Below are positions 45 through 44,209 of a stretch of DNA of 44,209 nt, in pieces. Within the stretch, counting starts at the first letter, position 1; every line of letters starts with the position of its first letter. Made by a program: the position numbers and the translations under genes. The notes beneath the pieces were generated by a model. It was not told where the DNA came from and did not search any database. It saw only the letters and a list, made by a program, of their open reading frames with translations. This DNA comes from a virus: UHGV virus genome UHGV-0377591. One strand, written 5' to 3'.

Positions 45-46
45 GT

Positions 47-76
47 AAAAAAAAAGAAAGGGGCGTTAAGCCCCTT
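47..76 (-). terminator. Rho-independent terminator after the HTH gene (also closes the rightward ORF ending at 44)
   Basis: Stem GGGGC-GTTA-GCCCC at 60-74 preceded on the plus strand by A9 (47-55), which is a T-run on the minus strand. Confidence 0.7.
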
Positions 77-281
77 CACCGAACGCCAGCCACTTGGCGT
101 CTACTTGCAGCACTTCCGCCAGTTTAAACAGCGTCGCCGGGCGGACGTCCTGAGTTACCCCAAGTGCCAGTTGGTTAATCGCGCCCTGGGAAACGCCAGT
201 CAGGACAGCCAGACGGCGCTGGGAGATGCCGAGTTCTTTGCGGCGTTGTTCTACACGGATGCCTAGTTCAGATGGTTGCAT
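66..281 (-). CDS. XRE-family helix-turn-helix transcriptional regulator (Cro/CI-like), 71 aa
   Basis: ORF track; HTH signature ELGISQRRLAVLTGVSQGAINQL; GGAG ribosome-binding site upstream; diverges from the early operon. Confidence 0.8.
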   Translation of the reverse strand: MQPSELGIRVEQRRKELGISQRRLAVLTGVSQGAINQLALGVTQDVRPATLFKLAEVLQVDAKWLAFGEGA

Positions 282-311
282 GTCAATTACTCCTTAGTCA
301 GTTGATATGTG

Positions 312-325
312 AATAGTACCATATT
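312..325 (-). promoter_or_regulatory. Imperfect operator palindrome AATAG-TACC-ATATT upstream of the HTH gene
   Basis: Minus-strand reading gives TACTATTCACAT about 30 nt upstream of the HTH start, the same core as the class II promoters below; no good -35. Confidence 0.4.
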
Positions 326-345
326 AATTATTTTAGAAAAGCCCA

Positions 346-374
346 TTGACATGTGAATAGTTCGCTATTATAGT
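346..374 (+). promoter_or_regulatory. Early sigma70-like promoter (class I) with operator palindrome in the spacer
   Basis: TTGACA (346-351), 17-bp spacer, TATAGT (369-374); AATAG-TTCG-CTATT at 356-369 lies inside the spacer. Confidence 0.6.
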
Positions 375-405
375 TAGTCCATACAAAACGAGAGGAGAGA
401 AACAA

Positions 406-903
406 ATGTTAGAACAATTTCTGAAATTACTGGAACGTTTCGTAGTTGCACACGAACTGATTGCAGCGAACAGTGCAAAACAAGTTGTTCATGCCGACGC
501 GCCGCTGGAAGTAGAGACAGTAGTGTATACCAAAAAAGCGGCGGGCGAGTGTGCCGAAGAAGCAAAAGAAATCACGGTTGAAGGTGAAGACGTCGTTGAC
601 ACTAAACCTGCGGAGGAAGAGAAGCCGAAACGCAAGACGCGTAAAGCTAAAGCAGAGGAACCGACGCCAGAGCCGGAAGAAGAGAAAAAAGAAGTAGATT
701 ACCAATCTCTGCGTGACCAGATTCAGGCTATCGACGATGCAATTAACGAAGGCCCGAGCGATGCCGCGTGCGATGATTCGGATGAACTGCTAGAAGAGTT
801 CACTGGCAAGAAGATGAAGATTGCCGCGATTAAAGACGAAGACCTGGCCGAATACCTGGAACGCCTGACGGCAATCAAGAACAAGTATTTCGAAGAAGAA
901 TAA
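406..903 (+). CDS. Highly acidic early protein, 165 aa, function unknown (candidate DNA mimic)
   Basis: ORF track; strong ribosome-binding site GAGAGGAGAGA; very high Glu/Asp content with a central Lys-rich stretch; ends KYFEEE. Confidence 0.7.
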   Translation: MLEQFLKLLERFVVAHELIAANSAKQVVHADAPLEVETVVYTKKAAGECAEEAKEITVEGEDVVDTKPAEEEKPKRKTRKAKAEEPTPEPEEEKKEVDYQSLRDQIQAIDDAINEGPSDAACDDSDELLEEFTGKKMKIAAIKDEDLAEYLERLTAIKNKYFEEE

Positions 904-1219: not shown

Positions 1220-2457
1220 TTCTAAAAGAACGTGGCGGCAATAACGATGTGCACGCCTTACTGTCACCGTCAGGCGCTAAAAAGTGGCTAAGCTGCGCCG
1301 CATCGCTGGCCTGTGAAAAAGATATTCCTAACACATCTGGTAAAGACGCCGTTACAGGGACCGCGTGTCACACCATAGCCGAGGTCCATTTAAATCAGTA
1401 CATCAAAGGCACTGCGTTGCCGTTAGAGCGTGAAGTCGGTGCTTACGTGCTGGATGAAGGCAAAGGCCAGATTAAGGCGTTAATCAGCCCTATGAAAGGT
1501 GCGGTACTTATTACGGCGGACATGATTGAGCAGGTGCGTAAGTACACCGACTACTGCAAACCGATTATCGACGTAGCGACTTACGCCAAGCTGGAAATGC
1601 GCGTCAATCTTACAGAGGTGCTGCATCCGGGATATGAAGGCGTTGAGACGTTCGGGACCGCTGACCTTGTTGCCGTGCAGGAACTGGCGAACACCGACGA
1701 GCACATGCTCATTATTGGAGACCTTAAAACAGGACGGCACCGTGTTGAAGCGAAAGAAAACAAGCAGCTTATGCTTTATGCTCTCGGTGTTTATCGCCGA
1801 CTCAAGAGACGATATAACATCACAGTTGTTCGTCTGGTCATCTTCCAGCCGTACGCTGGGGGCGCGTCGGAGTGGGACATCTCGGTTGAAGGTCTGGAAC
1901 TGTTCGCTAAGTTCGCACGGAAACGTGCACTGTTAGCATTAGATGCGTATTTCCGTGGTAAAAAGAACCTTAAAGCGTCGGACTTCAAGCCGTCAGTAGA
2001 TGGTTGCCAGTGGTGTCGGTTCTCTGAACAGTGCGCCGCGCGTACAAAAACCGTTAACTCTGTACTGGCGGAAGAACTGGAAGATGACTTTGCGCCGGAG
2101 CTTACGCCGGAGCAACTCGTAACCGAGTATGAGAAGTTGCCGTTGTTGCGTCAACACATCGACAAGGTTGAGAAAGCTATGGCTGCCGCGTTGCATTCCG
2201 GTAAGAAAGTTCCGGGGTACAAGCTGGTCGAGGGTCGTCCTGGTAATCGTGCGTGGAAAGATGCAGAGAAAGTAGCAGAACTCTACGGCGACAAGCTGAC
2301 TAAAGAAGTGCTCATGACGCCGACAGAAGCTGTTAAAGTTATCCCGGAAGAAGAACTGAAAGACTTCATTACCCGTAAGCCGGGAGCGCCATGCGTCGCC
2401 GCGGCAGACGATAAACGGCCTGAGTGGGACAGTGTAACAGAGGAGGATTTAGAATGA
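1216..2457 (+). CDS. PD-(D/E)xK Cas4/RecB-like exonuclease with Fe-S cysteine cluster (DUF2800-type)
   Basis: Start moved to ATG 1216 (GGAG upstream). Motifs IGDLKTGR and QLMLYALG; C-terminal CQWCRFSEQC plus N-terminal Cys; ends VTEEDLE. Confidence 0.75.
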   Translation: MILKERGGNNDVHALLSPSGAKKWLSCAASLACEKDIPNTSGKDAVTGTACHTIAEVHLNQYIKGTALPLEREVGAYVLDEGKGQIKALISPMKGAVLITADMIEQVRKYTDYCKPIIDVATYAKLEMRVNLTEVLHPGYEGVETFGTADLVAVQELANTDEHMLIIGDLKTGRHRVEAKENKQLMLYALGVYRRLKRRYNITVVRLVIFQPYAGGASEWDISVEGLELFAKFARKRALLALDAYFRGKKNLKASDFKPSVDGCQWCRFSEQCAARTKTVNSVLAEELEDDFAPELTPEQLVTEYEKLPLLRQHIDKVEKAMAAALHSGKKVPGYKLVEGRPGNRAWKDAEKVAELYGDKLTKEVLMTPTEAVKVIPEEELKDFITRKPGAPCVAAADDKRPEWDSVTEEDLE

Positions 2458-2954
2458 GTTTAGTCCGGGAGCGTTTCATTTATGACAACGGGAAACTAAT
2501 CTATCGCCACAATACAAAAAGAATGTTAGCGGGTCATGAGGCAGGAAGCCTCCACCATTCAGGGTATGTGCAGATATACATTAATCGTAAGTCCTACCAA
2601 AGAAGCCGTTTAATATGGGAGTACCACAACGGCCCTATACCTGAAGGGTTTGAGGTGGACCATATAAATGCGATAAGAAATGATGACAGGATAGAGAATC
2701 TCCAGTTAATCGCCCATAGTGATAATGTGGCTAAAGGTGGTATTCAAACCGGAAGAAGTCATAACAAAAGTGGGTACACTGGCGTGTTTTGGCGCAAAAG
2801 CCACGGTAAATGGCAAGCTGGAATTACCGTAAACGGGCAATATCGTTACCTTGGACTATTCGAAACTCCTGAACATGCTAACGTGGCAAGAAAGAATTTT
2901 GAAAGTAATTTGCTAAAAGAAGTTGACTACCGAATAGCGAACTATTATAGTTAA
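2454..2954 (+). CDS. HNH homing endonuclease with AP2-like DNA-binding domain
   Basis: Start moved to ATG 2454 (AGGAGG upstream, ATGA overlap). HNH core EVDHIN…NDDRIENLQL; AP2-like GYTGVFWRKSHGKWQAGITVNGQYRYLGLFETPEHA. Confidence 0.8.
   Translation: MSLVRERFIYDNGKLIYRHNTKRMLAGHEAGSLHHSGYVQIYINRKSYQRSRLIWEYHNGPIPEGFEVDHINAIRNDDRIENLQLIAHSDNVAKGGIQTGRSHNKSGYTGVFWRKSHGKWQAGITVNGQYRYLGLFETPEHANVARKNFESNLLKEVDYRIANYYS
2923..2951 (+). promoter_or_regulatory. Early sigma70-like promoter (class I) embedded in the 3' end of the HNH gene
   Basis: TTGACT (2923-2928), 17-bp spacer, TATAGT (2946-2951); AATAG-CGAA-CTATT at 2933-2946. Confidence 0.55.
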
Positions 2955-6011: not shown

Positions 6012-6106
6012 AAATTTACTGGTTATACGAGGAAGACTGTCGAATCTGTCCGCGCTGCGGGATTGAGCATACGAAACGTGAGGGGTGCGTAGATGAGTAC
6101 GCCTGA
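6008..6106 (+). CDS. Small four-cysteine zinc-ribbon-like protein, 32 aa (not in the ORF track)
   Basis: Manual translation MKIYWLYEEDCRICPRCGIEHTKREGCVDEYA; overlaps both neighbours. Confidence 0.3.
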   Translation: MKIYWLYEEDCRICPRCGIEHTKREGCVDEYA

Positions 6107-6380
6107 GGGGCGCGTGCAGAAATACGCAAAAGACCGATTCGAGGCCATCGGTGGCCTCGTACGCAAATTGTCGTACGAAAATAGAGTGGGTGCCCCTGAC
6201 CTGCTGGTAATTCTCCCCGGCGGCATTGTCTGGTTTATCGAGGTTAAGAAAGACGAAAACACGAAGCCAGACCCGCACCAGCTACGTGAACACGAGCGGA
6301 TGCGTAAACGCGGCGCGAATGTTTTTGTCGTTGGTTCGATAAAACAGGTTGACGACCTAATAGCGAACTATTATAGTTAG
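6093..6380 (+). CDS. VRR-NUC family PD-(D/E)xK nuclease, 95 aa
   Basis: Motifs GAPDLLVI and FIEVKKDEN; C-terminus IANYYS is encoded by the promoter/operator element. Confidence 0.75.
   Translation: MSTPEGRVQKYAKDRFEAIGGLVRKLSYENRVGAPDLLVILPGGIVWFIEVKKDENTKPDPHQLREHERMRKRGANVFVVGSIKQVDDLIANYYS
6349..6377 (+). promoter_or_regulatory. Early sigma70-like promoter (class I) embedded in the 3' end of the VRR-NUC gene
   Basis: TTGACG (6349-6354), 17-bp spacer, TATAGT (6372-6377); AATAG-CGAA-CTATT at 6359-6372. Confidence 0.55.
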
Positions 6381-14190: not shown

Positions 14191-15591
14191 TTAACCGTCC
14201 ACATTAAAGTCGATACGAGTGATGTATTTACTACCCCACGCCGAATCCGCTTGGGGTATGGAGGCATAACCGTCAACAGACGGAACGTTTACCACAGAGT
14301 CGTCGGAATATGTAATGTCGATGCTTGTTGCTCCGCTCATTACTACTTTTGCCGAGGCTGTAGGGCGTGTAATTAAATTTTCTTCGGTTTTAATATACGA
14401 CGATGAATTAGTAGATTTCTCCATTTGGGCACCAAAAACTGATATAGCACTAACACCATCACTTGGGAAAGACGTGTTGTTAGCAGCGTCAGAGGCCCAC
14501 ACAGACGCGTTTATACTTGTCGGGGAGGAATTAGTAATAACTCGCACCCATACTCTAAACCAGCCATCACCTACTGCTATTATACCGCATCTTGAATAGT
14601 CCTTAGCTGATGTTATCACCCCCGTAGATAGGTCTACATAAACAGGATTACTTGCCACCTGACTAGCAAATACTCCGATCTGAACAAGAGCATTATTGTA
14701 CCCATTTGCTTTCACAAAAACAGAATAGGTGTATGCCGTAGATGCTTCCGGGGTTATCAATTGTAAAACGTTATGAGTACCAGTGGTTGTTGTTGGGACT
14801 AGTTTGGATGCGCCCGTTCCGCCGGTAGGGTCTTGCGTTCCACCGTAGGTAACAGTAGTCCTTGTTTTCGCCCATACGGGATCCGATAAGTCCTCTGACA
14901 TTTTTAGTAGGTTTAGACCACCAACCTCCGGCGGCACACGCCCAACGGCAACACTATCAATAAATGTTAGAGGCCATTCATTAGTGGCTGATTGCACAAG
15001 ATTGCCGTTGCGGTTGATGTAATAAACCTGCGGCCCGTCGTACACAATGCGGCTATCCAGGGCGGACGCCAGAAGGTTAATCGGCGGGTATCCTGCGGGC
15101 CCTTCATCGCTCCAGATGCGCGGGAACGTAGTCTCATAGTTCGCGTATATTTTCAGGAAACTACCCAGACAATCCCCGTAGCAACCATACAAATCTGGCA
15201 GATTCTTAGTAAGACATGTGTCTTCCTGAATTGCTGTGCGCTCTGCTGTAGCCGTAAACGTAATGACCCAGTTCTTGCCGTCGTCTGTGCTATCGCTAAT
15301 ATCAGACGTAATAAGAACCTGGTGGTCTTCGATACCTAAACCGGTATCATGAGGCATGATGAACGAAGATGCCCCGCCGTCTATGTTATTCAGGAAGCTA
15401 TAGAAAGCCTGACGGCCTAGTGACGATACGACCAGGGTAACGCTAATAGGTACCGGTTCGAAGTATGTATCACGTCCCTGTCGAGGCACGCCACCTTGCA
15501 CTTCTGTACGCCAGATATTACTCCCTCGCGTTTGGGAGTACCCCTTCGACACTATTGGTCGAAGGGACATAGGGAATCTCAAATCACTCAT
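14191..15591 (-). CDS. Minor/distal tail protein (M-like by position) with a Thr/Ser-rich C-terminal extension
   Basis: ORF track; immediately downstream of the tape measure gene. Confidence 0.5.
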   Translation of the reverse strand: MSDLRFPMSLRPIVSKGYSQTRGSNIWRTEVQGGVPRQGRDTYFEPVPISVTLVVSSLGRQAFYSFLNNIDGGASSFIMPHDTGLGIEDHQVLITSDISDSTDDGKNWVITFTATAERTAIQEDTCLTKNLPDLYGCYGDCLGSFLKIYANYETTFPRIWSDEGPAGYPPINLLASALDSRIVYDGPQVYYINRNGNLVQSATNEWPLTFIDSVAVGRVPPEVGGLNLLKMSEDLSDPVWAKTRTTVTYGGTQDPTGGTGASKLVPTTTTGTHNVLQLITPEASTAYTYSVFVKANGYNNALVQIGVFASQVASNPVYVDLSTGVITSAKDYSRCGIIAVGDGWFRVWVRVITNSSPTSINASVWASDAANNTSFPSDGVSAISVFGAQMEKSTNSSSYIKTEENLITRPTASAKVVMSGATSIDITYSDDSVVNVPSVDGYASIPQADSAWGSKYITRIDFNVDG

Positions 15592-18705: not shown

Positions 18706-18813
18706 TCTTTAATCCTTTGGTTAAGAGGTTACAGGTTAATGGTAAATGCGCCAGACGGGAACCACCCGCTTTTCGTGTGCGACACTAGGCGCAAAATTAT
18801 TCTATCACATTAC

Positions 18814-18842
18814 TTGCGCACCCCAACATAATAGGATACTAT
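18814..18842 (+). promoter_or_regulatory. Class II promoter with operator palindrome overlapping the -10
   Basis: TTGCGC (18814-18819), 17-bp spacer, TACTAT (18837-18842); AATAG-GATA-CTATT at 18830-18843. Confidence 0.5.
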
Positions 18843-18883
18843 TCACTTACACCAACAATGTTAACTCAAACAGGATCTACACC

Positions 18884-26833: not shown

Positions 26834-27535
26834 TTATTTCCTCAGGGCTTTAAGTTGCCGTTCAAATTCGGCAGGGTTCGATTTATACAGAGCTAAACGC
26901 TCCGCTTCACTCATGTCTTTAAACGCTGGTGCGGCCCCGCCGCCTTTGCCACCGGAAGCCCCGCCGCCGGAAGCTGCATTTGCTTTAATCAAATGCGAAA
27001 ACGCTTTGTGTTCACGCAGGTATTTGCGGAACTGTTCCGGGTCAGTCGTGATTACATTACCGTCTGCGCCCACAAACTTAGTAACCACATCATCACCTTC
27101 GAACTCAGTCTTAACGAACGGAGCAAGAATGTCTACTGCTTCCGGGGTAATAAAGTCACCTGCGAAAGAGCCTAACACCGCTTTACGTTCGCTGCCGAGG
27201 ATGCGCTCAGCCATTTTGGTGATGCGACCATCTTTCTCGGCTAACACCGGGTCATACTGGCTACGAATCGTCTTTTCGAACTCGTCCATCTTACCAGCGG
27301 CTTTTAGCGCCTCCTGGTGCGCGCGCTGACGTTCCTCTTCGGCCTCTTTTGCTTTACGGGCGGCTTCTTTCTTCTCCGCCAGCAATGCTTCCTGATTGGC
27401 CTTAAGTCCGGCAACTTCTTTCTCAATCATCGCCTGAACTTCTTCAGCGGTGAACATTTTTGGAGCGTCGCCACCGCCAGATTTATCTTCTGCCCCAGCT
27501 TCTTCCTGGAACGGATAGTGTAAAAAACGATTCAT
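26834..27535 (-). CDS. Scaffolding protein
   Basis: Start moved to ATG 27535 (the track start is TTG). Lys/Glu/Ala-rich coiled-coil EEVQAMIEKEVAGLKANQEALLAEKKEAARKAKEAEEERQRAHQEALKAAG. Confidence 0.7.
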   Translation of the reverse strand: MNRFLHYPFQEEAGAEDKSGGGDAPKMFTAEEVQAMIEKEVAGLKANQEALLAEKKEAARKAKEAEEERQRAHQEALKAAGKMDEFEKTIRSQYDPVLAEKDGRITKMAERILGSERKAVLGSFAGDFITPEAVDILAPFVKTEFEGDDVVTKFVGADGNVITTDPEQFRKYLREHKAFSHLIKANAASGGGASGGKGGGAAPAFKDMSEAERLALYKSNPAEFERQLKALRK

Positions 27536-28113: not shown

Positions 28114-28363
28114 GTTTCCCCTTTCTCGATAAGTAAAGCCCCGCTTTAAGGCGGGGCGCTAGTCCTTATCATTTAAACATAGAAACGGCGTAATCTCAGT
28201 AAACCAGTTACTTTTTACACAAGCAATAGAGTATGGCCCTTCCGAACGCGTCAGCGTAACTACACTCAGGACTTACGTCCCGCTCCGTTACCTGCCCGCG
28301 CCGCGGTCGCTTGCTCATACTTCACAAGCTCAGGTGGAGCTTATCATATTTTCAGTGAAAAGT

Positions 28364-28379
28364 CAACTATTCGAATAGT
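28364..28379. promoter_or_regulatory. Perfect 16-bp palindrome AACTATTCGAATAGTT (everted operator half-sites)
   Basis: CTATT-CG-AATAG core; 55 bp upstream of the class II promoter. Confidence 0.5.
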
Positions 28380-28432
28380 TTATTCCAACGTTTACAATTG
28401 AGTGGAATAACTGGAATACGTAAATAAATAGT

Positions 28433-28461
28433 TTGCGCGCACCAACATAATAGGGTACTAT
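28433..28461 (+). promoter_or_regulatory. Class II promoter with operator palindrome overlapping the -10
   Basis: TTGCGC (28433-28438), 17-bp spacer, TACTAT (28456-28461); AATAG-GGTA-CTATT at 28449-28462. Confidence 0.5.
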
Positions 28462-28488
28462 TCAGTTAACTTAAACAGGAGATGAGAA

Positions 28489-29010
28489 ATGGTTACTACA
28501 GTAATTACTTTCCCTGCGTATGTAGGGGCGAAAATATGCAGGGCTAAAAATGATGTTCGCTACTATTTGAACGCTTTTTACATAGACCCTGAAGGATTGA
28601 TAGTGTCTACGGACGGTCATAGATTGTTCTGCGACAATGTGAAGACCAACGTTGAGAAAGGGACTCTCATAGACATCAAAGGGAGAGAGCCTTCTAAATT
28701 TAACTACGCGGAGGTAAACCACGACAACGGCAGTGTATCTTTCTATAACGATAATCGTGCGCTTATATGTACACTTCCGGTAGATGTTGTAGAAGGAAAC
28801 TTTCCTGACTGGAGACGCGTGGCGCACATCACACCGGGTGTTGTCGATAGTATAGGGTTCACCCTGCGTTATTTGGCAGACGCGTACAAGATTTCTAAGG
28901 CATACAAAAATGAAATTGCTCGTTTCGATTTCCAGGACCAAACCAGAGGATGCAAAATACAATTTTCAAACACGGCCTTTATGGTGTTAATGCCTGCGCG
29001 ATTTAAATAA
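28489..29010 (+). CDS. Hypothetical protein, 173 aa, encoded on the opposite strand inside the head-gene module
   Basis: ORF track; own promoter and AGGAGATGAGAA ribosome-binding site; own terminator. Confidence 0.65.
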   Translation: MVTTVITFPAYVGAKICRAKNDVRYYLNAFYIDPEGLIVSTDGHRLFCDNVKTNVEKGTLIDIKGREPSKFNYAEVNHDNGSVSFYNDNRALICTLPVDVVEGNFPDWRRVAHITPGVVDSIGFTLRYLADAYKISKAYKNEIARFDFQDQTRGCKIQFSNTAFMVLMPARFK

Positions 29011-30194: not shown

Positions 30195-31271
30195 TTATAC
30201 CGACCTAAGATATTCAGCAACCCTGTTATCTAACGCCGCCATCTCCTTCAAGGTTAAAGGTCTACCAAAAGCGTCGACGGATATTACCCGGAATTCCTCT
30301 GGGGATATCCCACTATTCCTGAATATAGCACCGCGGGTAGGTCCGAGTGCTTCATCCACGAACCATGCCGGTTGCTGTTTCAGGAACTCGTAATAGGTGG
30401 TGTCTGCGCTTACCTGCATACCGCCGTCCGCACCCTTAGCCGCGCGTTTTGCACCTTTATCTAGGAAGTCGAACTCCGAACTGATTACCGGTGCAGTGGT
30501 ACTTCGACATCCAAAATGGGCGGGGGGCATCGGACCTTTACCGATTTCCCACGTCATCCCGTCTCTGGCCCTGCAAATCGTACTGGTACGGCTGTCCAGC
30601 GTTGACACCCATTCGTATTTCTCGATGATGTCGTCGTTCTGGCGGTATGTCTCGTTGCGGGCTTCGTTGGATACGTGAGACAGCGCGGTGCGGATTACCG
30701 TAGCCGCGTTGCGTTCAGAGATGTCCGCCAGCCCACCAGCGCCTACGACATTTTTAACAATCTGCCGTGTGGTTTGGCCCTGAACAAACCCCATCTTAAC
30801 GCCAGTTACGAGGCGCGCGGCCTCCGTTTCACCCCAGCCTGCCATCAGCTTAGTGAAATCGACGGGCTTGTCGCTTAACGACAGCGGCTGAAACTCGGCA
30901 GCAGCCCACACCTGTTCGGCGGTAGGCGTAACAAATTCCGCGTCAACGTTGGCGGTCAGTGTTTTTACGTTCCACTCAGCCTCATATGCGGCCAGTTCCT
31001 TAAGGTCTTCTGTCAGCTTTGTTTGCCAGTCACCTGTAAGCCCCGTCAGTGCTTCTTCAAGGTCGCGTAACAGTTTATTCAGTCGCGCAGTGCTTCGCCC
31101 GTCGTCACCGAATAACAGCACCTGCCGTTTGATTTCGTCCCGCATCTCCTGAATGAACGGTGCGAGGTCTTTCACTTCACCGGACGCGGTGCGTTGCAGC
31201 CATATCTGGTGGCTGATTAGGGATGTAAGTAAGCTCATAGATAAACCCTGTGGCGCTAAAGTTAATAGCAT
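30195..31271 (-). CDS. Head morphogenesis protein (SPP1 gp7 / Mu F-like, by position and size)
   Basis: ORF track; immediately downstream of the portal gene. Confidence 0.65.
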   Translation of the reverse strand: MLLTLAPQGLSMSLLTSLISHQIWLQRTASGEVKDLAPFIQEMRDEIKRQVLLFGDDGRSTARLNKLLRDLEEALTGLTGDWQTKLTEDLKELAAYEAEWNVKTLTANVDAEFVTPTAEQVWAAAEFQPLSLSDKPVDFTKLMAGWGETEAARLVTGVKMGFVQGQTTRQIVKNVVGAGGLADISERNAATVIRTALSHVSNEARNETYRQNDDIIEKYEWVSTLDSRTSTICRARDGMTWEIGKGPMPPAHFGCRSTTAPVISSEFDFLDKGAKRAAKGADGGMQVSADTTYYEFLKQQPAWFVDEALGPTRGAIFRNSGISPEEFRVISVDAFGRPLTLKEMAALDNRVAEYLRSV

Positions 31272-31277
31272 ACTATA

Positions 31278-34052: not shown

Positions 34053-34594
34053 TCCTCTACCTCACCCATGTTCGTTGTTACAATTTTACCTACAGGCTCC
34101 GCAACACTGAAAATAATCTCAGTCGGTGCCGTTTCTTCGGCGGATTCAACTGGTTTCTCTTTGCCAAGGCCAAGTTTCGCAGCGGCAAACGTAGCAGAGA
34201 TACCTGCGGCCCCTGTCTCAGTGAAGTATGCCTCTTCCAATGCCTGCGCTGTCTCCCATGCTTCTGCGAATGCGGGAATCTCGCGCAGCCACAGCTTAAT
34301 AATCGGGATAGTGACGCCGATGCGTAAGGCAAAGCGGGCCAGTGACGGCGGTTTGTCCTGAATCAGCGGGCGTTCGTCGCCTTTGGAGGTAGGCACAAGC
34401 TCCCACGACGTGCGGTCGAAGAAACGAATCAATTCGTCGCAATAGTCCGGGTCCCACAACGCGGCGGAATTACGGGATGATTGATAAAGGCTCTGTTTAC
34501 CGAGCGGTCGTTTACGGCGACGGTTTGCGCTAACAGCTTCTTCATGTGCAGCTTGCACCACCTCTGGCGATGGCTGCTTGAGTTTCAGCTTCAT
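34049..34594 (-). CDS. Terminase small subunit (putative)
   Basis: Start moved to ATG 34594 (AAGGGG upstream); ATGA overlap with the large terminase start. Confidence 0.55.
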   Translation of the reverse strand: MKLKLKQPSPEVVQAAHEEAVSANRRRKRPLGKQSLYQSSRNSAALWDPDYCDELIRFFDRTSWELVPTSKGDERPLIQDKPPSLARFALRIGVTIPIIKLWLREIPAFAEAWETAQALEEAYFTETGAAGISATFAAAKLGLGKEKPVESAEETAPTEIIFSVAEPVGKIVTTNMGEVEE

Positions 34595-36686: not shown

Positions 36687-36769
36687 CTTCTCTACTCCGT
36701 TCTCGTTGTCGATGGAGTAAATATAGTAGGGTCGCAGGTAATAGTCAACTAGTCATTGCAGAAAATAGA

Positions 36770-37615: not shown

Positions 37616-37916
37616 CCGGGCCCCCTCGACGTGCGATGTATTCTCCGGCAACGATACCGGAGAGACGGGAATAAATAGGCATCCAGAGAACGGCGATGAT
37701 AAAGCCCAGGCCAGCTATCTCGCGCTCCCCGGTAATACCGAACCATTGGGCTGCGAGAGGTGCACCAAATACGGCGCAGGTGAAGCCAGTTACGATAAAG
37801 AAGAAGCCGTCGATAGGGCCGGAAATAACGGACTTATGTTGTCGTAGTCCGATGACCCCTCCGGCGAGTGCGGCAGCCAGAAGCCAGCCTGTCACTGTTT
37901 CAGTAAATTTATCCAA
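37608..37916 (-). CDS. Holin (three predicted transmembrane segments)
   Basis: Hydrophobic segments WLLAAALAGGVIGL, FFFIVTGFTCAVFGAPLAA and LGFIIAVLWMPIY; first gene of the lysis cassette. Confidence 0.6.
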   Translation of the reverse strand: MDKFTETVTGWLLAAALAGGVIGLRQHKSVISGPIDGFFFIVTGFTCAVFGAPLAAQWFGITGEREIAGLGFIIAVLWMPIYSRLSGIVAGEYIARRGGPDE

Positions 37917-38897: not shown

Positions 38898-39079
38898 CAA
38901 TCCACCCCTTCCACATGTGTAACCGACCCACAGTTCGCGCACTCGACGTAATCCGGAAACTGGTCTTTGTATTTCTGTAACTCGGCTTCGAGTTTCGCGT
39001 AGTCTTCATAACTTACGTACTCCCCGTTTACTTTGCTATCGAAGTGGCCATCTTCATAAAAGCCTTTGCGAACAGCCAT
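38897..39079 (-). CDS. Small hypothetical protein (paralog B) with C-terminal CxxC, 60 aa
   Basis: ORF track; YVSYEDYAKLEAELQKY; ends ECANCGSVTHVEGVD. Confidence 0.5.
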   Translation of the reverse strand: MAVRKGFYEDGHFDSKVNGEYVSYEDYAKLEAELQKYKDQFPDYVECANCGSVTHVEGVD

Positions 39080-39620: not shown

Positions 39621-39763
39621 CAGCTACCTCCAGTTCGCCGTAAACATGCTCGTTGTCGCCGCTGCATACACTGCAAACTCGCAACTCAGCATAAAGCTGT
39701 TCCAGTTTCTCAACCGTCAGATACTTATACATCTTCCGTCTCTCCTCTCGTTTGTGTAAATGA

Positions 39764-39792
39764 ATAGTAGCCTATTCTATCTTAATGTGCAA
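39764..39792 (-). promoter_or_regulatory. Class II promoter (leftward) with operator palindrome
   Basis: Minus strand TTGCAC, 17-bp spacer, TACTAT; plus-strand AATAG-TAGC-CTATT at 39763-39776. Confidence 0.5.
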
Positions 39793-40024
39793 GTAAATTT
39801 TATTGGTGTTTTAAAGATAATCGTTCACTGCGAATCCAGTAGTACCTCGGGCGTCGTACCCACTGACGCCATCGCATAACACGGTACTTGTTGCCGTCTG
39901 ACACAACAATAAGCCCGAATCGCTTTTCTCCGTTTCTACCGTCCAGGTTACGATGTCATTCGGTTTCATTGTTGCATCTCCTGCAATAGTCGCTTCGATT
40001 GTTGCGTTTGGTGAAATAGAACAA

Positions 40025-41056: not shown

Positions 41057-41090
41057 AACCCTAACTCCTCTGTCTCGTTTCGATAAGTGA

Positions 41091-41119
41091 ATAGTATCCT
41101 ATTATATTGGGGTGTGCAA
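41091..41119 (-). promoter_or_regulatory. Class II promoter (leftward) with operator palindrome
   Basis: Minus strand TTGCAC, 17-bp spacer, TACTAT; plus-strand AATAG-TATC-CTATT at 41090-41103; extra half-site GAATAGTT at 41122-41129. Confidence 0.55.
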
Positions 41120-41492
41120 GAGAATAGTTACGTTGCCGTTGTGATTCTTTAGGGAAGGTTGTGCCTTTATTCTTATTACTTGGTAACTAAAGGGCAGGCC
41201 TTAAGCCTGCCCAATAATCGTTACATTTTTACGGTTGCGAATCTACGGCACATTAAGAAAATCAGATACTTAAGATATATGCTGCCGATGAGAATAGAGC
41301 TTGCCCAAGGCAACCGGAGATACTAAGAAAGGAAAGTTACTATAATTCTCATGTTCAGTAAACTGCCGCCTAACACTTCGCGTTGGGCGCTCGTTTTCGG
41401 CGGGTTTTACAAGGTGAACAGGAATCAAAGTAACTAAGATATAGAAGCACCTTAAACGAAGATTTTCATAATGTCAATAGTTGAGATTATGT

Positions 41493-41521
41493 TTGATTTC
41501 CCATTATTCGCAATGTATACT
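41493..41521 (+). promoter_or_regulatory. Sigma70-like promoter for the rightward regulator/primase operon
   Basis: TTGATT (41493-41498), 17-bp spacer, TATACT (41516-41521); no operator palindrome. Confidence 0.5.
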
Positions 41522-41553
41522 TGGTTTCGTTAACTGATGATGAGGGGTTGAGA

Positions 41554-41724
41554 ATGACACAGAATGAAGTAGCTGAGCGTATTGGGGTTACTCGCCGCAC
41601 GCTTAATAACTGGTTAAAGAGTGGGAAGTTCCCGGATTGTTGTATCCGCATTATGGGCCGCCGGCAGCCGGGTACGTTTGACCCGGAGAAAGTGGAAGCG
41701 TGGATTAAGGAGAACGTGAAATGA
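41554..41724 (+). CDS. Small HTH DNA-binding protein (AlpA/excisionase-like fold), 56 aa
   Basis: Start moved to ATG 41554 (GAGGGG upstream). MTQNEVAERIGVTRRTLNNWLKSGKFP. Confidence 0.6.
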   Translation: MTQNEVAERIGVTRRTLNNWLKSGKFPDCCIRIMGRRQPGTFDPEKVEAWIKENVK

Positions 41725-42012: not shown

Positions 42013-44209
42013 ATGTCCGATGTAATTTTATCCTACTCGTGGTCACGTCGCAACGCGCGGGCAGAGAAAAAGGATATAAACGTCAGAACCACACACACGG
42101 CAACACTGGACGACCTGAAAGAGCTAATTCAGCCGCTTGATGCTGTTCGTGACGGAATTAACCCGAAGACCGCGCCGGGGTATATCACTGCCGCGTGTGA
42201 CTCTACGCACAGCACCGTAAAAGACCCTGAAACCGCTGACTTTAAGCAAGCACGTAAAGGCTTCTTCTATCGCTGCGACGCGTCTGTAAGCAAATCGTCG
42301 CTCGCCTATCTGGACTTCGACAGCGCAACACCGGAAGAGTATCAGGAAGCTGTGCGCCTGGTTAAGCGCAGCCGCCTGGCTATGTGCCTCTACACCACGG
42401 CATCCCATACCGATGAGTCACCACGCTTTCGCGTCGTCATGCCGATGGCCCGTCCTGTTGAGGGTGGTGACATCATCCGTGTTCGTCATGGCTTGCTTGA
42501 GCACTTCTTCAAAGGCATGGGCGCTGACCGCAGCGGGTTTACTCTGTCACAACCGATGTACCTGCCGCCGGTTGGCTCTACGGTTATCTGGTCGCGCCGC
42601 AACGACCTGATTGACCCGGACGAGTTACTGGAAGGTATCCCCGCCGTTGACGTTAGCAGCGCATCGGATTACCAGATACCGGAAGAACTGCGTACCGCGT
42701 TTACTGATGCGTTTGAGGCGCTGGCGTTTGAGTACGGCGGTGTTATGACGCCCCGCGGCCTTAAGATGCCAGCTACGCCGGAACATGCAGAAAATTACAG
42801 CGACCCTACGCCGCGGCCGGACGACTTCCTGCTGTGCTTCCCGCGCGAGGGCTACGAAGCGCCGAACGTAACCATGATCCACGACACTGACATTACGGCA
42901 ACCGAAGGCATGTCGCCGAAAGAGGTGTGGAAGTATGCGTGTGATGCGACCGGGCTGCCGTTCAGTGAAGTCGCCGAGGCTATCGGATGGGGTGCGCGTG
43001 AATCTGTTTCATGCAGCCTGGACGACCTGGAAGACGATGATGGCTCAGAGGAGGACGAGCTACCGGAACCGGTAAAGGCTGATTTCGTCGTTGAAGGTTA
43101 TATGCCGTCAGACTGCATCTGGGATATCGTCGGGGAGTCGGGCACATACAAATCGTTCTATACGCTGGGGATGATGTATCTTAGCGCCGCCGGATACCGG
43201 TTCGCCGGGGCGGACACCCAGCGTTGCCATCACTTCTATATCGACGGTGAGGGTGGCGCGGCTACACGCACACGTATTGACGCACTCGCGGCTAAATACG
43301 GCGAGGAAGGTAAAGATTATGTACATGTCATCGACATGGGCGAAGTCGGAAAACTGAAAAGCCTGATTAAGTTAATGCGCGAAACTGCGGGGGATGAACC
43401 TATTGGCATGGTTGCGTTTGACACCCTCAACCAGACGCTGGCCCTGACGATCGATAAGTTCGACGAGAACAGCTCATCAACGGCAATCGGTATGGGTAAA
43501 GTTATCGCCATCCTGAAAGAAGTACGCGACGCAACTAAAGCTGCGGTGGGTGTTGTCCACCATACACCGAAGGGCGGAAAGAAAGCCCGTGGTAGCGGGG
43601 CACTGTATGCTGGCGTCGACGTGGAACTGACAATCGAACGTGCAACCGTCCGCCAGATAAACGTATACCACTCTAAATTCAAACATGGGCCTCAACAGAA
43701 AACGGTTGGCATGGTGCTGGAGTCTGTACAGTTCCGTGAAGCACCACCGCCGAAAGAGTACCGTGCTGTCGAGTTCCTGGGTAGCACAGAGGAGTACGGC
43801 ACAATCGTAAACCTGGACCTGCCTGAGCCGCACAAGGCGCTTGTGCTGATGCCGTGGGGCTTCGAGCCGTTCAAGACTGACGAGGAGAAAGAGCGGGAAG
43901 AAGGGCTGACAAAGGAAGGTAAAGAAAACGTAAAGAATGCTGTAAAACGTGGGAAGGATGAAGGGCGTAAGGAATCGATACTCGCCGCGCTTGAAGACCT
44001 GCAACAGTCAGATGACACAGGTCGCGGTTTTACTCAGCAGCAGATAGTGGCCCGTTCCGGTGACTTTTCTGTGACTAACACCCATCTTGATAAAATGCTG
44101 AAAGATGGTGAACTAATGCTAGGCTGTGATGCTAATGGCGAAGTAGTACCGAGAACGTATCGTATGCCTGAAAGAATAGGGGATAGACTAAGACCGAAGA
44201 CAATATACG
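42013..44209 (+). CDS. Primase/helicase: AEP (Prim-Pol) N-terminal domain plus RecA-like helicase domain; 3'-truncated by the window edge
   Basis: Open frame from ATG 42013 to the window end (732 codons; absent from the track because it has no stop). AEP-like LAYLDFDS and TASHTDE; Walker A IVGESGTYKS; Walker B MVAFDTLN. Confidence 0.8.
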   Translation, partial: MSDVILSYSWSRRNARAEKKDINVRTTHTATLDDLKELIQPLDAVRDGINPKTAPGYITAACDSTHSTVKDPETADFKQARKGFFYRCDASVSKSSLAYLDFDSATPEEYQEAVRLVKRSRLAMCLYTTASHTDESPRFRVVMPMARPVEGGDIIRVRHGLLEHFFKGMGADRSGFTLSQPMYLPPVGSTVIWSRRNDLIDPDELLEGIPAVDVSSASDYQIPEELRTAFTDAFEALAFEYGGVMTPRGLKMPATPEHAENYSDPTPRPDDFLLCFPREGYEAPNVTMIHDTDITATEGMSPKEVWKYACDATGLPFSEVAEAIGWGARESVSCSLDDLEDDDGSEEDELPEPVKADFVVEGYMPSDCIWDIVGESGTYKSFYTLGMMYLSAAGYRFAGADTQRCHHFYIDGEGGAATRTRIDALAAKYGEEGKDYVHVIDMGEVGKLKSLIKLMRETAGDEPIGMVAFDTLNQTLALTIDKFDENSSSTAIGMGKVIAILKEVRDATKAAVGVVHHTPKGGKKARGSGALYAGVDVELTIERATVRQINVYHSKFKHGPQQKTVGMVLESVQFREAPPPKEYRAVEFLGSTEEYGTIVNLDLPEPHKALVLMPWGFEPFKTDEEKEREEGLTKEGKENVKNAVKRGKDEGRKESILAALEDLQQSDDTGRGFTQQQIVARSGDFSVTNTHLDKMLKDGELMLGCDANGEVVPRTYRMPERIGDRLRPKTIY

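What the first reader, a model, noticed from the sequence alone, without database searches (positions are those of the whole stretch)
282..405. Divergent promoter and operator region resembling a genetic switch
A 124-bp spacer separates the leftward XRE-type HTH gene from the rightward early operon. It holds a rightward TTGACA-17-TATAGT promoter with a palindrome in its spacer (356-369) and an imperfect copy (312-325) positioned over a leftward TACTAT -10-like element for the HTH gene. Two operators over back-to-back promoters is the usual architecture for autoregulation and early-gene repression. No integrase or cI-sized repressor is in the window, so this looks like a Cro-type early regulator rather than a lysogeny switch.
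Basis: partly seen in the sequence, partly recalled or inferred. Interest (0 to 1): 0.5.

Follow-up and report, generated by a model that had tools for sequence, protein, structure and literature searches.

The report
Phage-wide operator on a Cro-like gene
The 124-bp spacer really holds two back-to-back promoters, each covered by a 14-bp palindrome, next to a small phage-434-Cro-like gene; the same palindrome also sits on about eight other promoters of this lytic coliphage, so it is probably the binding site of one genome-wide repressor and not a local lysogeny switch.

Summary

The window is a complete, circularly closed Kagunavirus genome (Guernseyvirinae, K1G-like lytic siphophage) with no integrase. 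The 71-aa gene at 66..281(-) is an HTH_3 protein. Its best solved relative is phage 434 Cro.

The palindrome AATAG-N4-CTATT is not confined to this spacer. It occurs 11 times (1 mismatch or fewer) against 1.2 expected. It lies in the core of almost every strong sigma-70 promoter, in three registers:
- over the -10 (TTGCRC-17-TACTAT);
- in the spacer (TTGAC-17-TATAGT);
- possibly over the -35.

The regulator's own promoter carries the weakest copy, and its one mismatch creates an extended -10. In 37 Kagunavirus relatives the arms are invariant while the central 4 bp vary. Jerseyvirus has the same motif. Cornellvirus has a one-base symmetric variant.

Most likely the Cro-like dimer represses these promoters and itself. 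Binding is untested. A second phage HTH (HTH_17) is a weaker rival. A published paper saw the motif but called it a phage-RNA-polymerase promoter, although no such polymerase gene is annotated.

This is a new member of a known kind, of moderate interest.

The parts
66..281 (-). Gene for a 71-aa HTH_3 (XRE/Cro-CI type) protein, the putative regulator
   Evidence: ORF. Pfam HTH_3 E 1.1e-12. The best PDB sequence hit is 434 Cro, E 1.9e-6 over the full length. The AF2 model has five helices, pLDDT 80.7. Foldseek hits include 434 Cro, the 434 repressor NTD, P22 c2, the SinR NTD and C.AhdI.
57..77 (-). Intrinsic terminator ending the HTH transcript. The T-run is on the minus strand only.
   Evidence: stem GAAGGGGC/GCCCCTTT followed by CTTTTTTTTT on the minus strand. 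On the plus strand the hairpin is followed by CACCGAACG, with no T-run.
290..295 (-). Shine-Dalgarno AAGGAG of the HTH gene
   Evidence: Read directly from the sequence. Nearly invariant in the relatives (36 of 38 Kagunavirus-type sequences; AAGGAA in L012 and L013).
312..325 (.). O_L: imperfect operator AATAGTACCATATT (minus strand AATATGGTACTATT), overlapping the -10 of the HTH gene's promoter
   Evidence: Invariant in 36 of 38 Kagunavirus-type sequences (window plus 37 IMG/VR relatives). It is also the weakest copy in Jerseyvirus, with 2 arm mismatches.
313..321 (-). P_HTH extended -10: TGgTACTAT (TACTAT 318..313, TG 321..320). There is only a poor -35, TTTTCT at 340..335.
   Evidence: The same TACTAT -10 occurs in four other class A promoters. 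Jerseyvirus keeps TTGCAC-17-TACTAT here, and Kagunavirus lost the -35 through a 10-bp deletion.
330..357 (-). Alternative leftward promoter candidate TTCACA-16-TAAAAT. Its -35 lies inside O_R.
   Evidence: 10/12. TAAAAT is nearly invariant in Kagunavirus but not conserved in Jerseyvirus.
346..374 (+). P_R1: TTGACA-17-TATAGT, the promoter of the rightward replication-module operon (406 onward)
   Evidence: 11/12. Both hexamers are conserved in all Kagunavirus relatives; the spacer is 17-18 bp.
356..369 (.). O_R: perfect operator AATAGTTCGCTATT in the spacer of P_R1, abutting the -10
   Evidence: In 37 relatives the arms are invariant while the central 4 bp vary (CGAA, CTAA, TGAA, CAAA, CGAG, CTAG).
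2923..2951 (+). P_R2 (TTGACT-17-TATAGT) with operator 2933-2946, upstream of the DUF2815 SSB-like gene and the DNA polymerase gene
6349..6377 (+). P_R3 (TTGACG-17-TATAGT) with operator 6359-6372, upstream of the SNF2 helicase operon
18812..18843 (+). Class A promoter TTGCGC-17-TACTAT with operator 18830-18843, driving the superinfection-immunity-like and SbcD-like genes (18884 onward)
28431..28462 (+). Class A promoter TTGCGC-17-TACTAT with operator 28449-28462, driving gene 28489..29010
39763..39794 (-). Class A promoter TTGCAC-17-TACTAT with operator 39763-39776, driving the leftward small genes towards the holin and endolysin genes
41090..41121 (-). Class A promoter TTGCAC-17-TACTAT with operator 41090-41103, driving the leftward small genes from 41056
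36720..36753 (-). Possible class C site: TTGACT-17-TATATT with a one-mismatch palindrome (36740-36753) over the -35. Uncertain.
   Evidence: A comparable AATAG-TTGA/TTGC arrangement also occurs in Cornellvirus, whose operator differs, so this may not be a true operator.
28358..28371 (-). Possible class C site: a one-mismatch palindrome over the TTGACT -35 of the promoter leading to the spanin, scaffold and capsid genes. Uncertain.

Best explanation
The spacer 282-405 is the autoregulatory node of a genome-wide repression circuit in an obligately lytic Kagunavirus.

The 71-aa 434-Cro-like HTH_3 protein (66..281, minus strand) most likely binds as a dimer to the 14-bp palindrome AATAG-N4-CTATT.

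In this spacer one perfect copy (O_R, 356-369) fills the -35/-10 spacer of the strong sigma-70 promoter P_R1 (TTGACA-17-TATAGT), which drives the replication module. One imperfect copy (O_L, 312-325) overlaps the extended -10 (TGgTACTAT) of the regulator's own leftward promoter.

Perfect copies sit in the core of at least six further host-RNA-polymerase promoters: two more TTGAC-17-TATAGT promoters of the replication module and four TTGCRC-17-TACTAT promoters of accessory or early cassettes.

Occupancy would occlude RNA polymerase. As the protein accumulates it would turn down these promoters first. Only at a higher concentration would it turn down its own weaker-operator promoter (negative autoregulation).

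Shown: the sequence elements, their enrichment, their placement on promoters, their conservation pattern, and the protein's family and fold.

Inferred: that this protein is the binder, that it binds as a dimer, and that binding represses.
For: 1. Enrichment: 11 sites against 1.18 expected in the window and 11 against 1.10 in fBC-Eco01. It is the top 5-nt-arm palindrome in an unbiased scan of two Kagunavirus genomes and one Jerseyvirus genome; a direct motif count in a second Jerseyvirus gives 10 sites (5 exact) against 1.45 expected.
2. Placement: the sites are intergenic or in the last 22 nt of a gene. Five of the 6 intergenic promoters scoring 10/12 or better carry the palindrome.
3. Registers: the palindrome sits in three different registers relative to the -35 and -10 (centres about -12.5, -18.5 and -33.5). 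This fits steric repression and does not fit an activator or a polymerase-specific promoter.
4. Footprint: in 37 IMG/VR Kagunavirus relatives the arms of O_R are invariant while the central 4 bp and the adjoining 1-3 nt vary, with indels.
5. Protein: HTH_3. The best solved relative is 434 Cro, which is also 71 aa. The model has five helices. From textbook knowledge, 434 and P22 operators share the xxxxG-N4-Cxxxx geometry, and the Gln that reads A1 in 434 aligns with Gln32 here.
6. Recognition helix: GVSQGAINQLALG is invariant among Kagunavirus-type homologs down to 77% identity.
7. Conservation across genera: the divergent XRE/P_R arrangement with two operators, the weaker one on the regulator's own promoter, is kept in Kagunavirus and Jerseyvirus. 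A comparable arrangement with variant sites is present in Cornellvirus.
8. Lineage, not host: Cornellvirus (XRE about 40% identical, same Salmonella host as Jerseyvirus) has a half-site variant, TATTAG against TAATAG, changed in both arms only in its class A sites (class B sites keep GTATTA on the right), at homologous promoters. The motif therefore tracks the phage lineage and not the host.
9. Only shared HTH: the XRE is the only recognisable HTH protein shared by all three genera.
Against: - No binding or expression experiment exists for this protein.
- The recognition-helix residues do not co-vary cleanly with the operator. Kagunavirus has SQGAINQ and Jerseyvirus SQSLITH, yet both use the same operator. 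Jerseyvirus and Cornellvirus have similar helices (SQSLITH and TQSAISH) but different operators.
- The second phage HTH (HTH_17) is 79-89% identical between the two genera that share the operator, which fits it slightly better on that criterion.
- RNA-seq of a related phage puts the XRE ortholog in the broad 'middle' class together with most genes that it would repress (PMC12645636).
- Which of the two leftward promoter candidates is used is unknown.
Confidence: 0.6

Rival explanations
1. The palindromes are bound by the other phage HTH protein, not by the XRE protein. This is the 56-aa HTH_17 (AlpA/excisionase-like) product of 41554..41724. It is the first gene of the only strong early operon whose promoter lacks the palindrome. 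It would act on all palindrome-bearing promoters, as a repressor or as an AlpA/Q-like factor loaded at the promoter.
For: HTH_17 Pfam hit, E 2e-7. Its promoter TTGATT-17-TATACT has no operator. Its ortholog is one of only four early genes in Kagunavirus K1B4 RNA-seq (PMC12645636). It is 79-89% identical between Kagunavirus and Jerseyvirus, which share the identical operator, whereas the XRE is only about 50% identical.
Against: No homolog is found in the Cornellvirus genomes (tblastn E<1). No other Pfam HTH domain is found among nine further small early-region proteins of Shemara that were scanned. Yet Cornellvirus keeps a closely related palindrome at homologous promoters and the divergent XRE/P_R region. 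From general knowledge, HTH_17/Xis-type proteins usually bind direct repeats as monomers, while a 14-bp 5-4-5 palindrome is the classic 434/P22-type dimer site. The palindrome overlapping the -10 in class A argues against an activator.
Confidence: 0.15
2. The XRE protein is an immunity-type global repressor, in the manner of P1 C1, phiC31 c or L5 gp71 with dispersed operators. It would be able to silence most of the genome and support a non-integrated carrier or pseudolysogenic state, or superinfection immunity, in a phage group regarded as strictly lytic.
For: Operators lie on nearly all strong promoters, with the weakest on the repressor's own promoter. That is the logic of an immunity repressor: its own gene stays on when the others are off. 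The subfamily carries leftovers of lambdoid modules: NinH, a superinfection-immunity-like gene, an Ant anti-repressor in SETP3, and an excisionase-like HTH.
Against: The closed genome has no integrase, partition system or protelomerase. The protein has 71 aa and no C-terminal oligomerisation or cleavage domain. The helicase-primase operon promoter and the promoter before the terminase gene lack operators. Published isolates are described as lytic and free of lysogeny genes (PMC9825357; PMC11990801).
Confidence: 0.07
3. The motif is a promoter for a phage-encoded RNA polymerase, as stated in the fBC-Eco01 paper, or it is simply a set of paralogous promoter copies with no separate operator function.
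For: PHIRE recovered the consensus tgAATAGTa-ccTATTat-T at 7 sites, and the authors assigned them to a phage RNA polymerase (PMC9825357; record annotation). Class A promoters share sequence beyond the palindrome (CACCCCAACAT and TCAC), which is compatible with duplication.
Against: No RNA polymerase gene is annotated in fBC-Eco01 or SETP3, and none is mapped in the window. Every site has ordinary sigma-70 -35 and -10 hexamers. The palindrome occurs in different registers in two unrelated promoter classes. The arms are invariant while the centre and flanks drift. The Cornellvirus variant changes both arms symmetrically in its class A sites only; class B sites keep GTATTA on the right.
Confidence: 0.05

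Closest known systems
Phage 434 Cro and its 14-bp operators (OR/OL)
   Same: The protein length is the same (71 aa) and 434 Cro is the best solved sequence relative (E 1.9e-6; 37-40% identity in the Foldseek alignment). Both have the five-helix HTH_3 fold. The operator is a 14-bp palindrome with conserved outer bases and a non-conserved centre; 434 has ACAAG-N4-CTTGT-like sites (textbook knowledge). The operators overlap core promoter elements, and the protein has no C-terminal domain.
   Different: There is no partner cI repressor, no tripartite OR, and no lysogeny module or integrase. The two local operators are 44 bp apart and not adjacent. At least six further operators are dispersed over the genome. 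The half-site sequence differs (AATAG).
Dispersed-operator phage repressors (P1 C1; phiC31 repressor c with conserved inverted repeats; mycobacteriophage L5 gp71 stoperators)
   Same: One small regulator and many copies of one short site embedded in promoters all over the genome (from my own knowledge of these systems; not tested here).
   Different: Those are immunity repressors of temperate phages with larger proteins. Here the phage is lytic, the protein is a minimal Cro-like domain, and the sites are symmetric palindromes.
Restriction-modification controller (C) proteins such as C.AhdI and C.BclI
   Same: They are structural neighbours of the model: small dimeric XRE proteins that bind palindromic boxes on their own promoter for concentration-dependent autoregulation (textbook knowledge).
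   Different: C proteins act on one or two local promoters and activate before they repress. Here the site lies over or next to the -10, and there is a regulon of about 9 promoters.
'Phage promoters' predicted by PHIRE in Escherichia phage fBC-Eco01 (PMC9825357)
   Same: It is the same motif (consensus tgAATAGTa-ccTATTat-T) at the homologous places in a 96%-identical control region.
   Different: The paper attributes the motif to a phage-encoded RNA polymerase that the genome does not encode. It does not link the motif to the HTH gene or note its palindromic, operator-like nature.

Membership tests
Cro/CI-type HTH (Pfam HTH_3, XRE family) | Profile match above the curated threshold | tested here: met
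   HTH_3 scores 48.2 bits against a cut-off of 23, E 1.1e-12, residues 11-65.
Cro/CI-type HTH (Pfam HTH_3, XRE family) | Five-helix globular fold with the helix 2-turn-helix 3 motif | tested here: met
   The AF2 model has helices 5-17, 21-28, 32-39, 48-57 and 62-66, pLDDT 80.7. Foldseek TM 0.75-0.78 to 2cro, 3cro, 1pra and 3qq6.
Cro/CI-type HTH (Pfam HTH_3, XRE family) | Binds a palindromic operator as a dimer | not testable with these tools
   Only inferred, from the 14-bp 5-4-5 palindrome next to the gene and across the genome.
Lambdoid Cro of a cI/Cro lysis-lysogeny switch | Divergently transcribed partner repressor (cI) that shares the operator region | tested here: not met
   The divergent gene 406..903 encodes an acidic 165-aa protein with no Pfam domain. 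There is no cI-sized HTH protein in the genome map.
Lambdoid Cro of a cI/Cro lysis-lysogeny switch | Temperate context: integrase or other lysogeny functions | tested here: not met
   The window closes on itself in frame. No integrase is present in the map, in extra ORFs or in annotated relatives.
Lambdoid Cro of a cI/Cro lysis-lysogeny switch | Three adjacent operators with graded affinity between two promoters | tested here: not met
   There are two operators 44 bp apart, one perfect and one with a mismatch.
Negatively autoregulated repressor with an operator over its own promoter | Operator overlaps the core promoter of the regulator's own gene | tested here: met
   O_L 312-325 contains 5 of the 6 nt of the TACTAT -10. 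For the alternative promoter it lies at about +5 to +18. It is conserved in Kagunavirus and Jerseyvirus.
Negatively autoregulated repressor with an operator over its own promoter | The protein lowers its own transcription | not testable with these tools
   This needs a reporter or knockout experiment.
Dispersed-operator global phage repressor (P1 C1 / phiC31 c / L5 gp71 type) | Many copies of one site at promoters across the genome | tested here: met
   There are 7 exact and 4 one-mismatch sites, of which 8-10 lie on promoters. The same holds in fBC-Eco01, SETP3 and Kenya-K28.
Dispersed-operator global phage repressor (P1 C1 / phiC31 c / L5 gp71 type) | Maintains a prophage or immunity state | not testable with these tools
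   There are no lysogeny genes, and published isolates are described as lytic. Immunity was not tested.
Phage-RNA-polymerase promoter (claim in PMC9825357) | The phage encodes its own RNA polymerase | tested here: not met
   No RNA polymerase appears among the annotated CDS of fBC-Eco01 or SETP3, or in the window map. The sites carry sigma-70 hexamers.

The most novel reading that the evidence does not exclude
The Cro-like protein is in effect an immunity-type global repressor. Operators lie on nearly every strong promoter and the weakest lies on its own. It could therefore hold most of the genome of a supposedly strictly lytic, therapy-candidate phage group (Guernseyvirinae) in a silenced, non-integrated carrier state, or give superinfection immunity to infected cells.
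Probability: 0.07. Interest if true: 0.7.

Novelty: new member of a known kind. Interest (0 to 1): 0.36.

Why it matters
Guernseyvirinae (Kagunavirus, Jerseyvirus) are among the phages most often isolated for therapy and biocontrol of E. coli and Salmonella. They are also being adopted as small synthetic-biology chassis. Their transcription programme is uncharacterised, as far as my searches of the open-access literature show.

If the reading is right:
- One 71-aa protein and one 14-bp site explain the control of most host-polymerase promoters of these phages.
- A published mis-assignment (phage-RNA-polymerase promoters) is corrected.
- The many database labels for this gene ('repressor', 'DicA', 'Cro') get a concrete meaning: it is a Cro-like regulator and not evidence of lysogeny.
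- A compact, orthogonal repressor/operator pair with three ready-made promoter architectures becomes available.

It is a textbook type of mechanism, so the conceptual surprise is modest.

Tried and rejected
1. CRP, ArgR or another host-factor site. The flank TGTGA resembles a CRP half-site and TGAAT an ARG box, but the second halves do not match. The motif also follows phage lineage and not host: Jerseyvirus and Cornellvirus both infect Salmonella yet differ.

2. Co-variation of the XRE recognition helix with the operator across the three genera was inconclusive. The helices differ where the operators agree, and the reverse.

3. Rfam gave no match and ARAGORN found no tRNA anywhere in the window, so there is no known RNA element in the spacer.

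4. Reading the 25-nt repeat as tandem rightward promoters. The upstream copy gives only TTGATA-18-AATTAT (9/12). The same sequence is a conserved leftward class A -10, so a tandem rightward promoter is not favoured.

5. Literature. Searches for Guernseyvirinae, Kagunavirus, Jerseyvirus, SETP3 and MB78 with promoter or repressor terms found no experimental work on this regulator. Three of these searches were too loosely specified and returned irrelevant papers.

6. The supplements of PMC12645636 give gene coordinates but no per-gene expression values. Promoter-class kinetics therefore could not be extracted.

7. The search for homologous proteins returned only close relatives (20 proteins), so the structure model rests on a shallow alignment.

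Full report
**What the window is.** The first 6 kb match more than 450 GenBank phages, best at 86-91% identity. These are Escherichia phages of the genus Kagunavirus (K1G, K1H and others), then Salmonella Jerseyvirus. Both genera belong to the subfamily Guernseyvirinae.

I mapped the annotated proteins of Escherichia phage fBC-Eco01 onto the window. This gave a full siphophage gene set: replication module, tail, head, terminase, lysis genes and many small genes.

The last codons of the window (...RPKTIY) continue in frame into its first bases ((E)PNEMLVVTEEDLE*). Together these form the C-terminus of the helicase-primase. The window is therefore a closed circular permutation of the whole genome.

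No integrase is present in the map, in extra ORFs scanned against Pfam, or in annotated relatives.

**Check of the observation.**
- HTH ORF 66..281(-); next gene at 406(+); spacer 124 bp.
- TTGACA 346-351, 17 bp, TATAGT 369-374 (11/12 to consensus).
- AATAGTTCGCTATT at 356-369.
- AATAGTACCATATT at 312-325.
- TACTAT on the minus strand at 318..313.

Three refinements:
- The two copies are part of a 25-nt direct repeat (302-326 and 346-370), 84% identical and 44 bp apart.
- The leftward TACTAT is preceded by TG, so it is an extended -10 with only a poor -35, TTTTCT.
- There is a second leftward candidate, TTCACA-16-TAAAAT (357..330, 10/12), whose -35 lies inside the right-hand operator.

A T-tailed hairpin on the minus strand (77..57) ends the HTH transcript, so the gene is monocistronic.

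**The palindrome is genome-wide.** AATAG-N4-CTATT with 1 mismatch or fewer occurs 11 times in the window against 1.18 expected. None of 100 shuffles reach 11. The count in fBC-Eco01 is the same, 11 against 1.10. Enumerating every palindrome with 4-6-nt arms and 0-10-nt spacers puts this one first among the 5-nt-arm palindromes (7 exact copies; next best 3).

**Three promoter classes carry it.**

Class B is TTGAC-17-TATAGT with the palindrome in the spacer, abutting the -10. It occurs at 356, 2933 and 6359. These are the three rightward promoters of the replication module: P_R1 before the exonuclease, P_R2 before the SSB-like protein and DNA polymerase, and P_R3 before the SNF2 helicase.

Class A is TTGCRC-17-TACTAT with the palindrome covering 5 of the 6 -10 bases. 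It occurs at 18830(+), 28449(+), 39763(-) and 41090(-). The HTH gene's own site at 312(-) is also of this type. Each lies 27-41 nt upstream of a start codon.

Two one-mismatch sites (28358 and 36740) overlap TTGACT -35 hexamers of promoters leading to late and lysis genes. I treat these as uncertain. A comparable AATAG-TTGA/TTGC arrangement also occurs in Cornellvirus, whose operator is different.

One more one-mismatch site (31264) is followed only by a terminator hairpin and looks like a remnant.

Of the six intergenic promoters scoring 10/12 or better, five carry the palindrome. The clear exceptions are TTGATT-17-TATACT at 41493, which drives the HTH_17 and helicase-primase operon, and a promoter before the terminase gene.

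**Phylogenetic footprint.** I collected 37 Kagunavirus and 12 Jerseyvirus loci from IMG/VR with the HTH protein as query and aligned the upstream regions. In Kagunavirus:
- The arms of O_R, both P_R1 hexamers and O_L are essentially invariant.
- The four central bases of O_R vary (CGAA, CTAA, TGAA, CAAA, CGAG, CTAG).
- The 1-3 nt between O_R and the -35 vary, with indels.

Conserved arms with a free centre are what a dimeric HTH operator should show.

O_L keeps its single mismatch (AATAT for AATAG) in every genome. That same G-to-T change creates the TG of the extended -10. One base therefore both weakens the operator and strengthens the promoter.

Jerseyvirus has a full TTGCAC-17-TACTAT promoter for its HTH gene. 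Kagunavirus lost that -35 through a 10-bp deletion. The operator spacing changed from 55 to 44-45 bp, about one helical turn.

Jerseyvirus uses the same motif, extended to TAATAG-N4-CTATTA. SETP3 and Kenya-K28 each have 5 exact and 5 near copies. Again the weakest copy is on the regulator's own promoter.

Cornellvirus (Shemara, SP-031) has no AATAG palindrome at all. It has a related one, TATTAs-N4-sTAATA or GTATTA, at the homologous promoters. Counts are 22 against 4.6 and 19 against 4.3 expected at 2 mismatches or fewer. The half-site differs at one position (TAATAG to TATTAG). The change is mirrored in the second arm only in the class A sites (sTAATA); class B sites keep GTATTA there.

Jerseyvirus and Cornellvirus share the host genus Salmonella, so the motif follows the phage lineage and not the host.

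**The protein.**
- Pfam HTH_3, E 1.1e-12.
- The best solved sequence relative is phage 434 Cro, also 71 aa, aligned end to end (E 1.9e-6). Next come the 434 repressor and P22 c2 DNA-binding domains.
- An AlphaFold2 model from a shallow alignment has five helices and mean pLDDT 80.7.
- Foldseek returns the SinR NTD, HipB, 434 Cro (39% identity), the 434 repressor NTD, the C.AhdI and C.BclI controller proteins, and P22 c2.

From textbook knowledge, 434 operators (ACAAG-N4-CTTGT-like) and P22 operators (TTAAG-N4-CTTAA) have the same 5-4-5 layout. The first Gln of the 434 recognition helix reads the adenine at operator position 1. That Gln aligns with Gln32 here, and the operator also starts with A. 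This is a lead, not a test.

The helix-turn-helix segment GVSQGAINQLALG is invariant among Kagunavirus-type homologs down to 77% identity, while the N- and C-terminal parts vary.

**Which protein binds?** The phage has a second HTH, a 56-aa HTH_17 (AlpA/excisionase-like) protein. It is the first gene behind the operator-less promoter at 41493.

Points for HTH_17:
- It is 79-89% identical between Kagunavirus and Jerseyvirus, which share the operator. The XRE proteins are only about 50% identical and have different recognition-helix residues.
- Its ortholog is one of four early genes in RNA-seq of Kagunavirus vB_Eco_K1B4 (PMC12645636).

Points against HTH_17:
- It has no homolog in either Cornellvirus genome.
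- Of ten small early-region proteins of Shemara, only the XRE has any HTH Pfam hit.
- Cornellvirus nevertheless keeps the divergent XRE/P_R region and the dispersed, closely related palindromes.

The XRE is thus the only recognisable DNA-binding protein that goes with this operator family in all three genera. Its gene sits on the two-operator node, and its family is the one that classically reads such palindromes. I put about 0.7 on XRE as the binder and 0.15 on HTH_17.

**Repression or activation?** The class B promoters are near-consensus and need no activator. In class A the site covers the -10. The site centres fall at about -12.5, -18.5 and possibly -33.5. That spread is incompatible with a stereospecific activator or a Q/AlpA-type loading site, and it fits steric occlusion.

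The likely circuit is as follows. Host RNA polymerase fires all promoters on entry. The Cro-like protein, made from its extended -10 promoter, accumulates and turns down the replication and accessory promoters that carry perfect operators. Last, it damps its own promoter through the imperfect O_L. If the TTCACA-16-TAAAAT promoter is the one used, damping would act through O_R over its -35 and O_L as a roadblock.

**Timing caveat.** The K1B4 study lists gene _004 among middle genes, together with 42 of 57 genes. By my reading of its size and position (216 nt, between a divergent 471-nt gene and the convergent 2208-nt helicase-primase), _004 is the XRE ortholog. The classes in that study are too coarse to test the model.

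**Prior literature.** The fBC-Eco01 genome paper found the motif with PHIRE (consensus tgAATAGTa-ccTATTat-T, seven sites). It assigned the sites to 'the phage-encoded RNA polymerase' (PMC9825357; features). No such polymerase is annotated in that genome or in SETP3, or mapped here, and every site has sigma-70 hexamers. I found no paper that links the motif to the HTH gene or tests the protein.

**Verdict.** It is too narrow, however. The spacer is one node of a phage-wide regulon of about nine operator-bearing promoters, conserved across a subfamily.

The mechanism is a familiar one, and neither binding nor repression has been shown. I rate it a new member of a known kind with moderate interest (0.36).

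The most novel reading not excluded is that this is an immunity-like global repressor that allows a carrier state in 'strictly lytic' therapy phages. I give that about 0.07.

Noticed in passing
window 41057-41553: A noncoding region of about 500 bp lies between the leftward class A promoter (41090) and the rightward operator-less promoter (41493). It holds a strong hairpin (41192-41212), a second terminator-like hairpin (41367-41389), an extra AATAG half-site repeat (41118-41128) and several long-range inverted repeats. It could be an origin or could encode a small RNA. Rfam finds nothing.
   Followed up: partly
window 2424-2954: An HNH-AP2 homing-endonuclease gene ends inside the P_R2 promoter and operator (2923-2951). 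fBC-Eco01 has no HNH gene at this position but has HNH genes at two other places. This looks like a mobile insertion landing right beside a regulated promoter.
   Followed up: partly
window 31264-31277 and 28431-29010: An orphan one-mismatch class A -10/operator (AATAGCATACTATA) is followed only by a terminator hairpin. In fBC-Eco01 a perfect site at the same place drives gp04. The window's gp04 homolog (99% identical) sits 2.8 kb away behind another class A promoter. Promoter-operator-gene cassettes seem to move as units.
   Followed up: partly
window 28365-28380: A perfect 16-bp palindrome, AACTATTCGAATAGTT, is built from the two operator half-sites in swapped order (CTATT-CG-AATAG). It lies next to the TTGACT promoter that leads to the spanin, scaffold and capsid genes. 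Its meaning is unknown.
   Followed up: no
window 45-90: The hairpin after the HTH gene has an A-run on its left and no T-run on its right. It should stop leftward transcripts but not rightward ones. Transcription of the helicase-primase operon may therefore read through antisense to the HTH gene and into P_R1, which would be a possible early interference with HTH expression.
   Followed up: no
window 42100-44209 joined to 1-45: The C-terminal half of the helicase-primase is 97% identical to that of fBC-Eco01, but the N-terminal (primase) part aligns at only about 25%. This suggests a domain-level replacement. The window's end joins its start in frame.
   Followed up: partly
L050, L054, L055 (IMG/VR Jerseyvirus loci), upstream region of the HTH gene: These are mosaic genomes. 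They have a Jerseyvirus-type HTH gene and both operators, but a Kagunavirus-type leader immediately beyond the P_R -10. A recombination joint therefore lies at the edge of the regulator-operator module.
   Followed up: no
window 406-903: The first gene behind P_R1 encodes a very acidic, Lys/Glu-rich 165-aa protein with no Pfam family. Databases label it '13.88 kDa late protein', a name I believe (from memory, not checked here) derives from old Salmonella phage MB78 work. That label sits oddly with its position at the head of the replication operon.
   Followed up: no
L001 (OM272052.1) features 6061-6080, 15129-15148, 27124-27143, 34223-34242, 37807-37826, 38973-38992: The GenBank record and the paper label these palindrome sites as promoters for a phage-encoded RNA polymerase, which the genome does not encode. 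Several terminators in the record are also labelled 'Rho-dependent' although they were predicted by ARNold, which predicts intrinsic terminators.
   Followed up: yes
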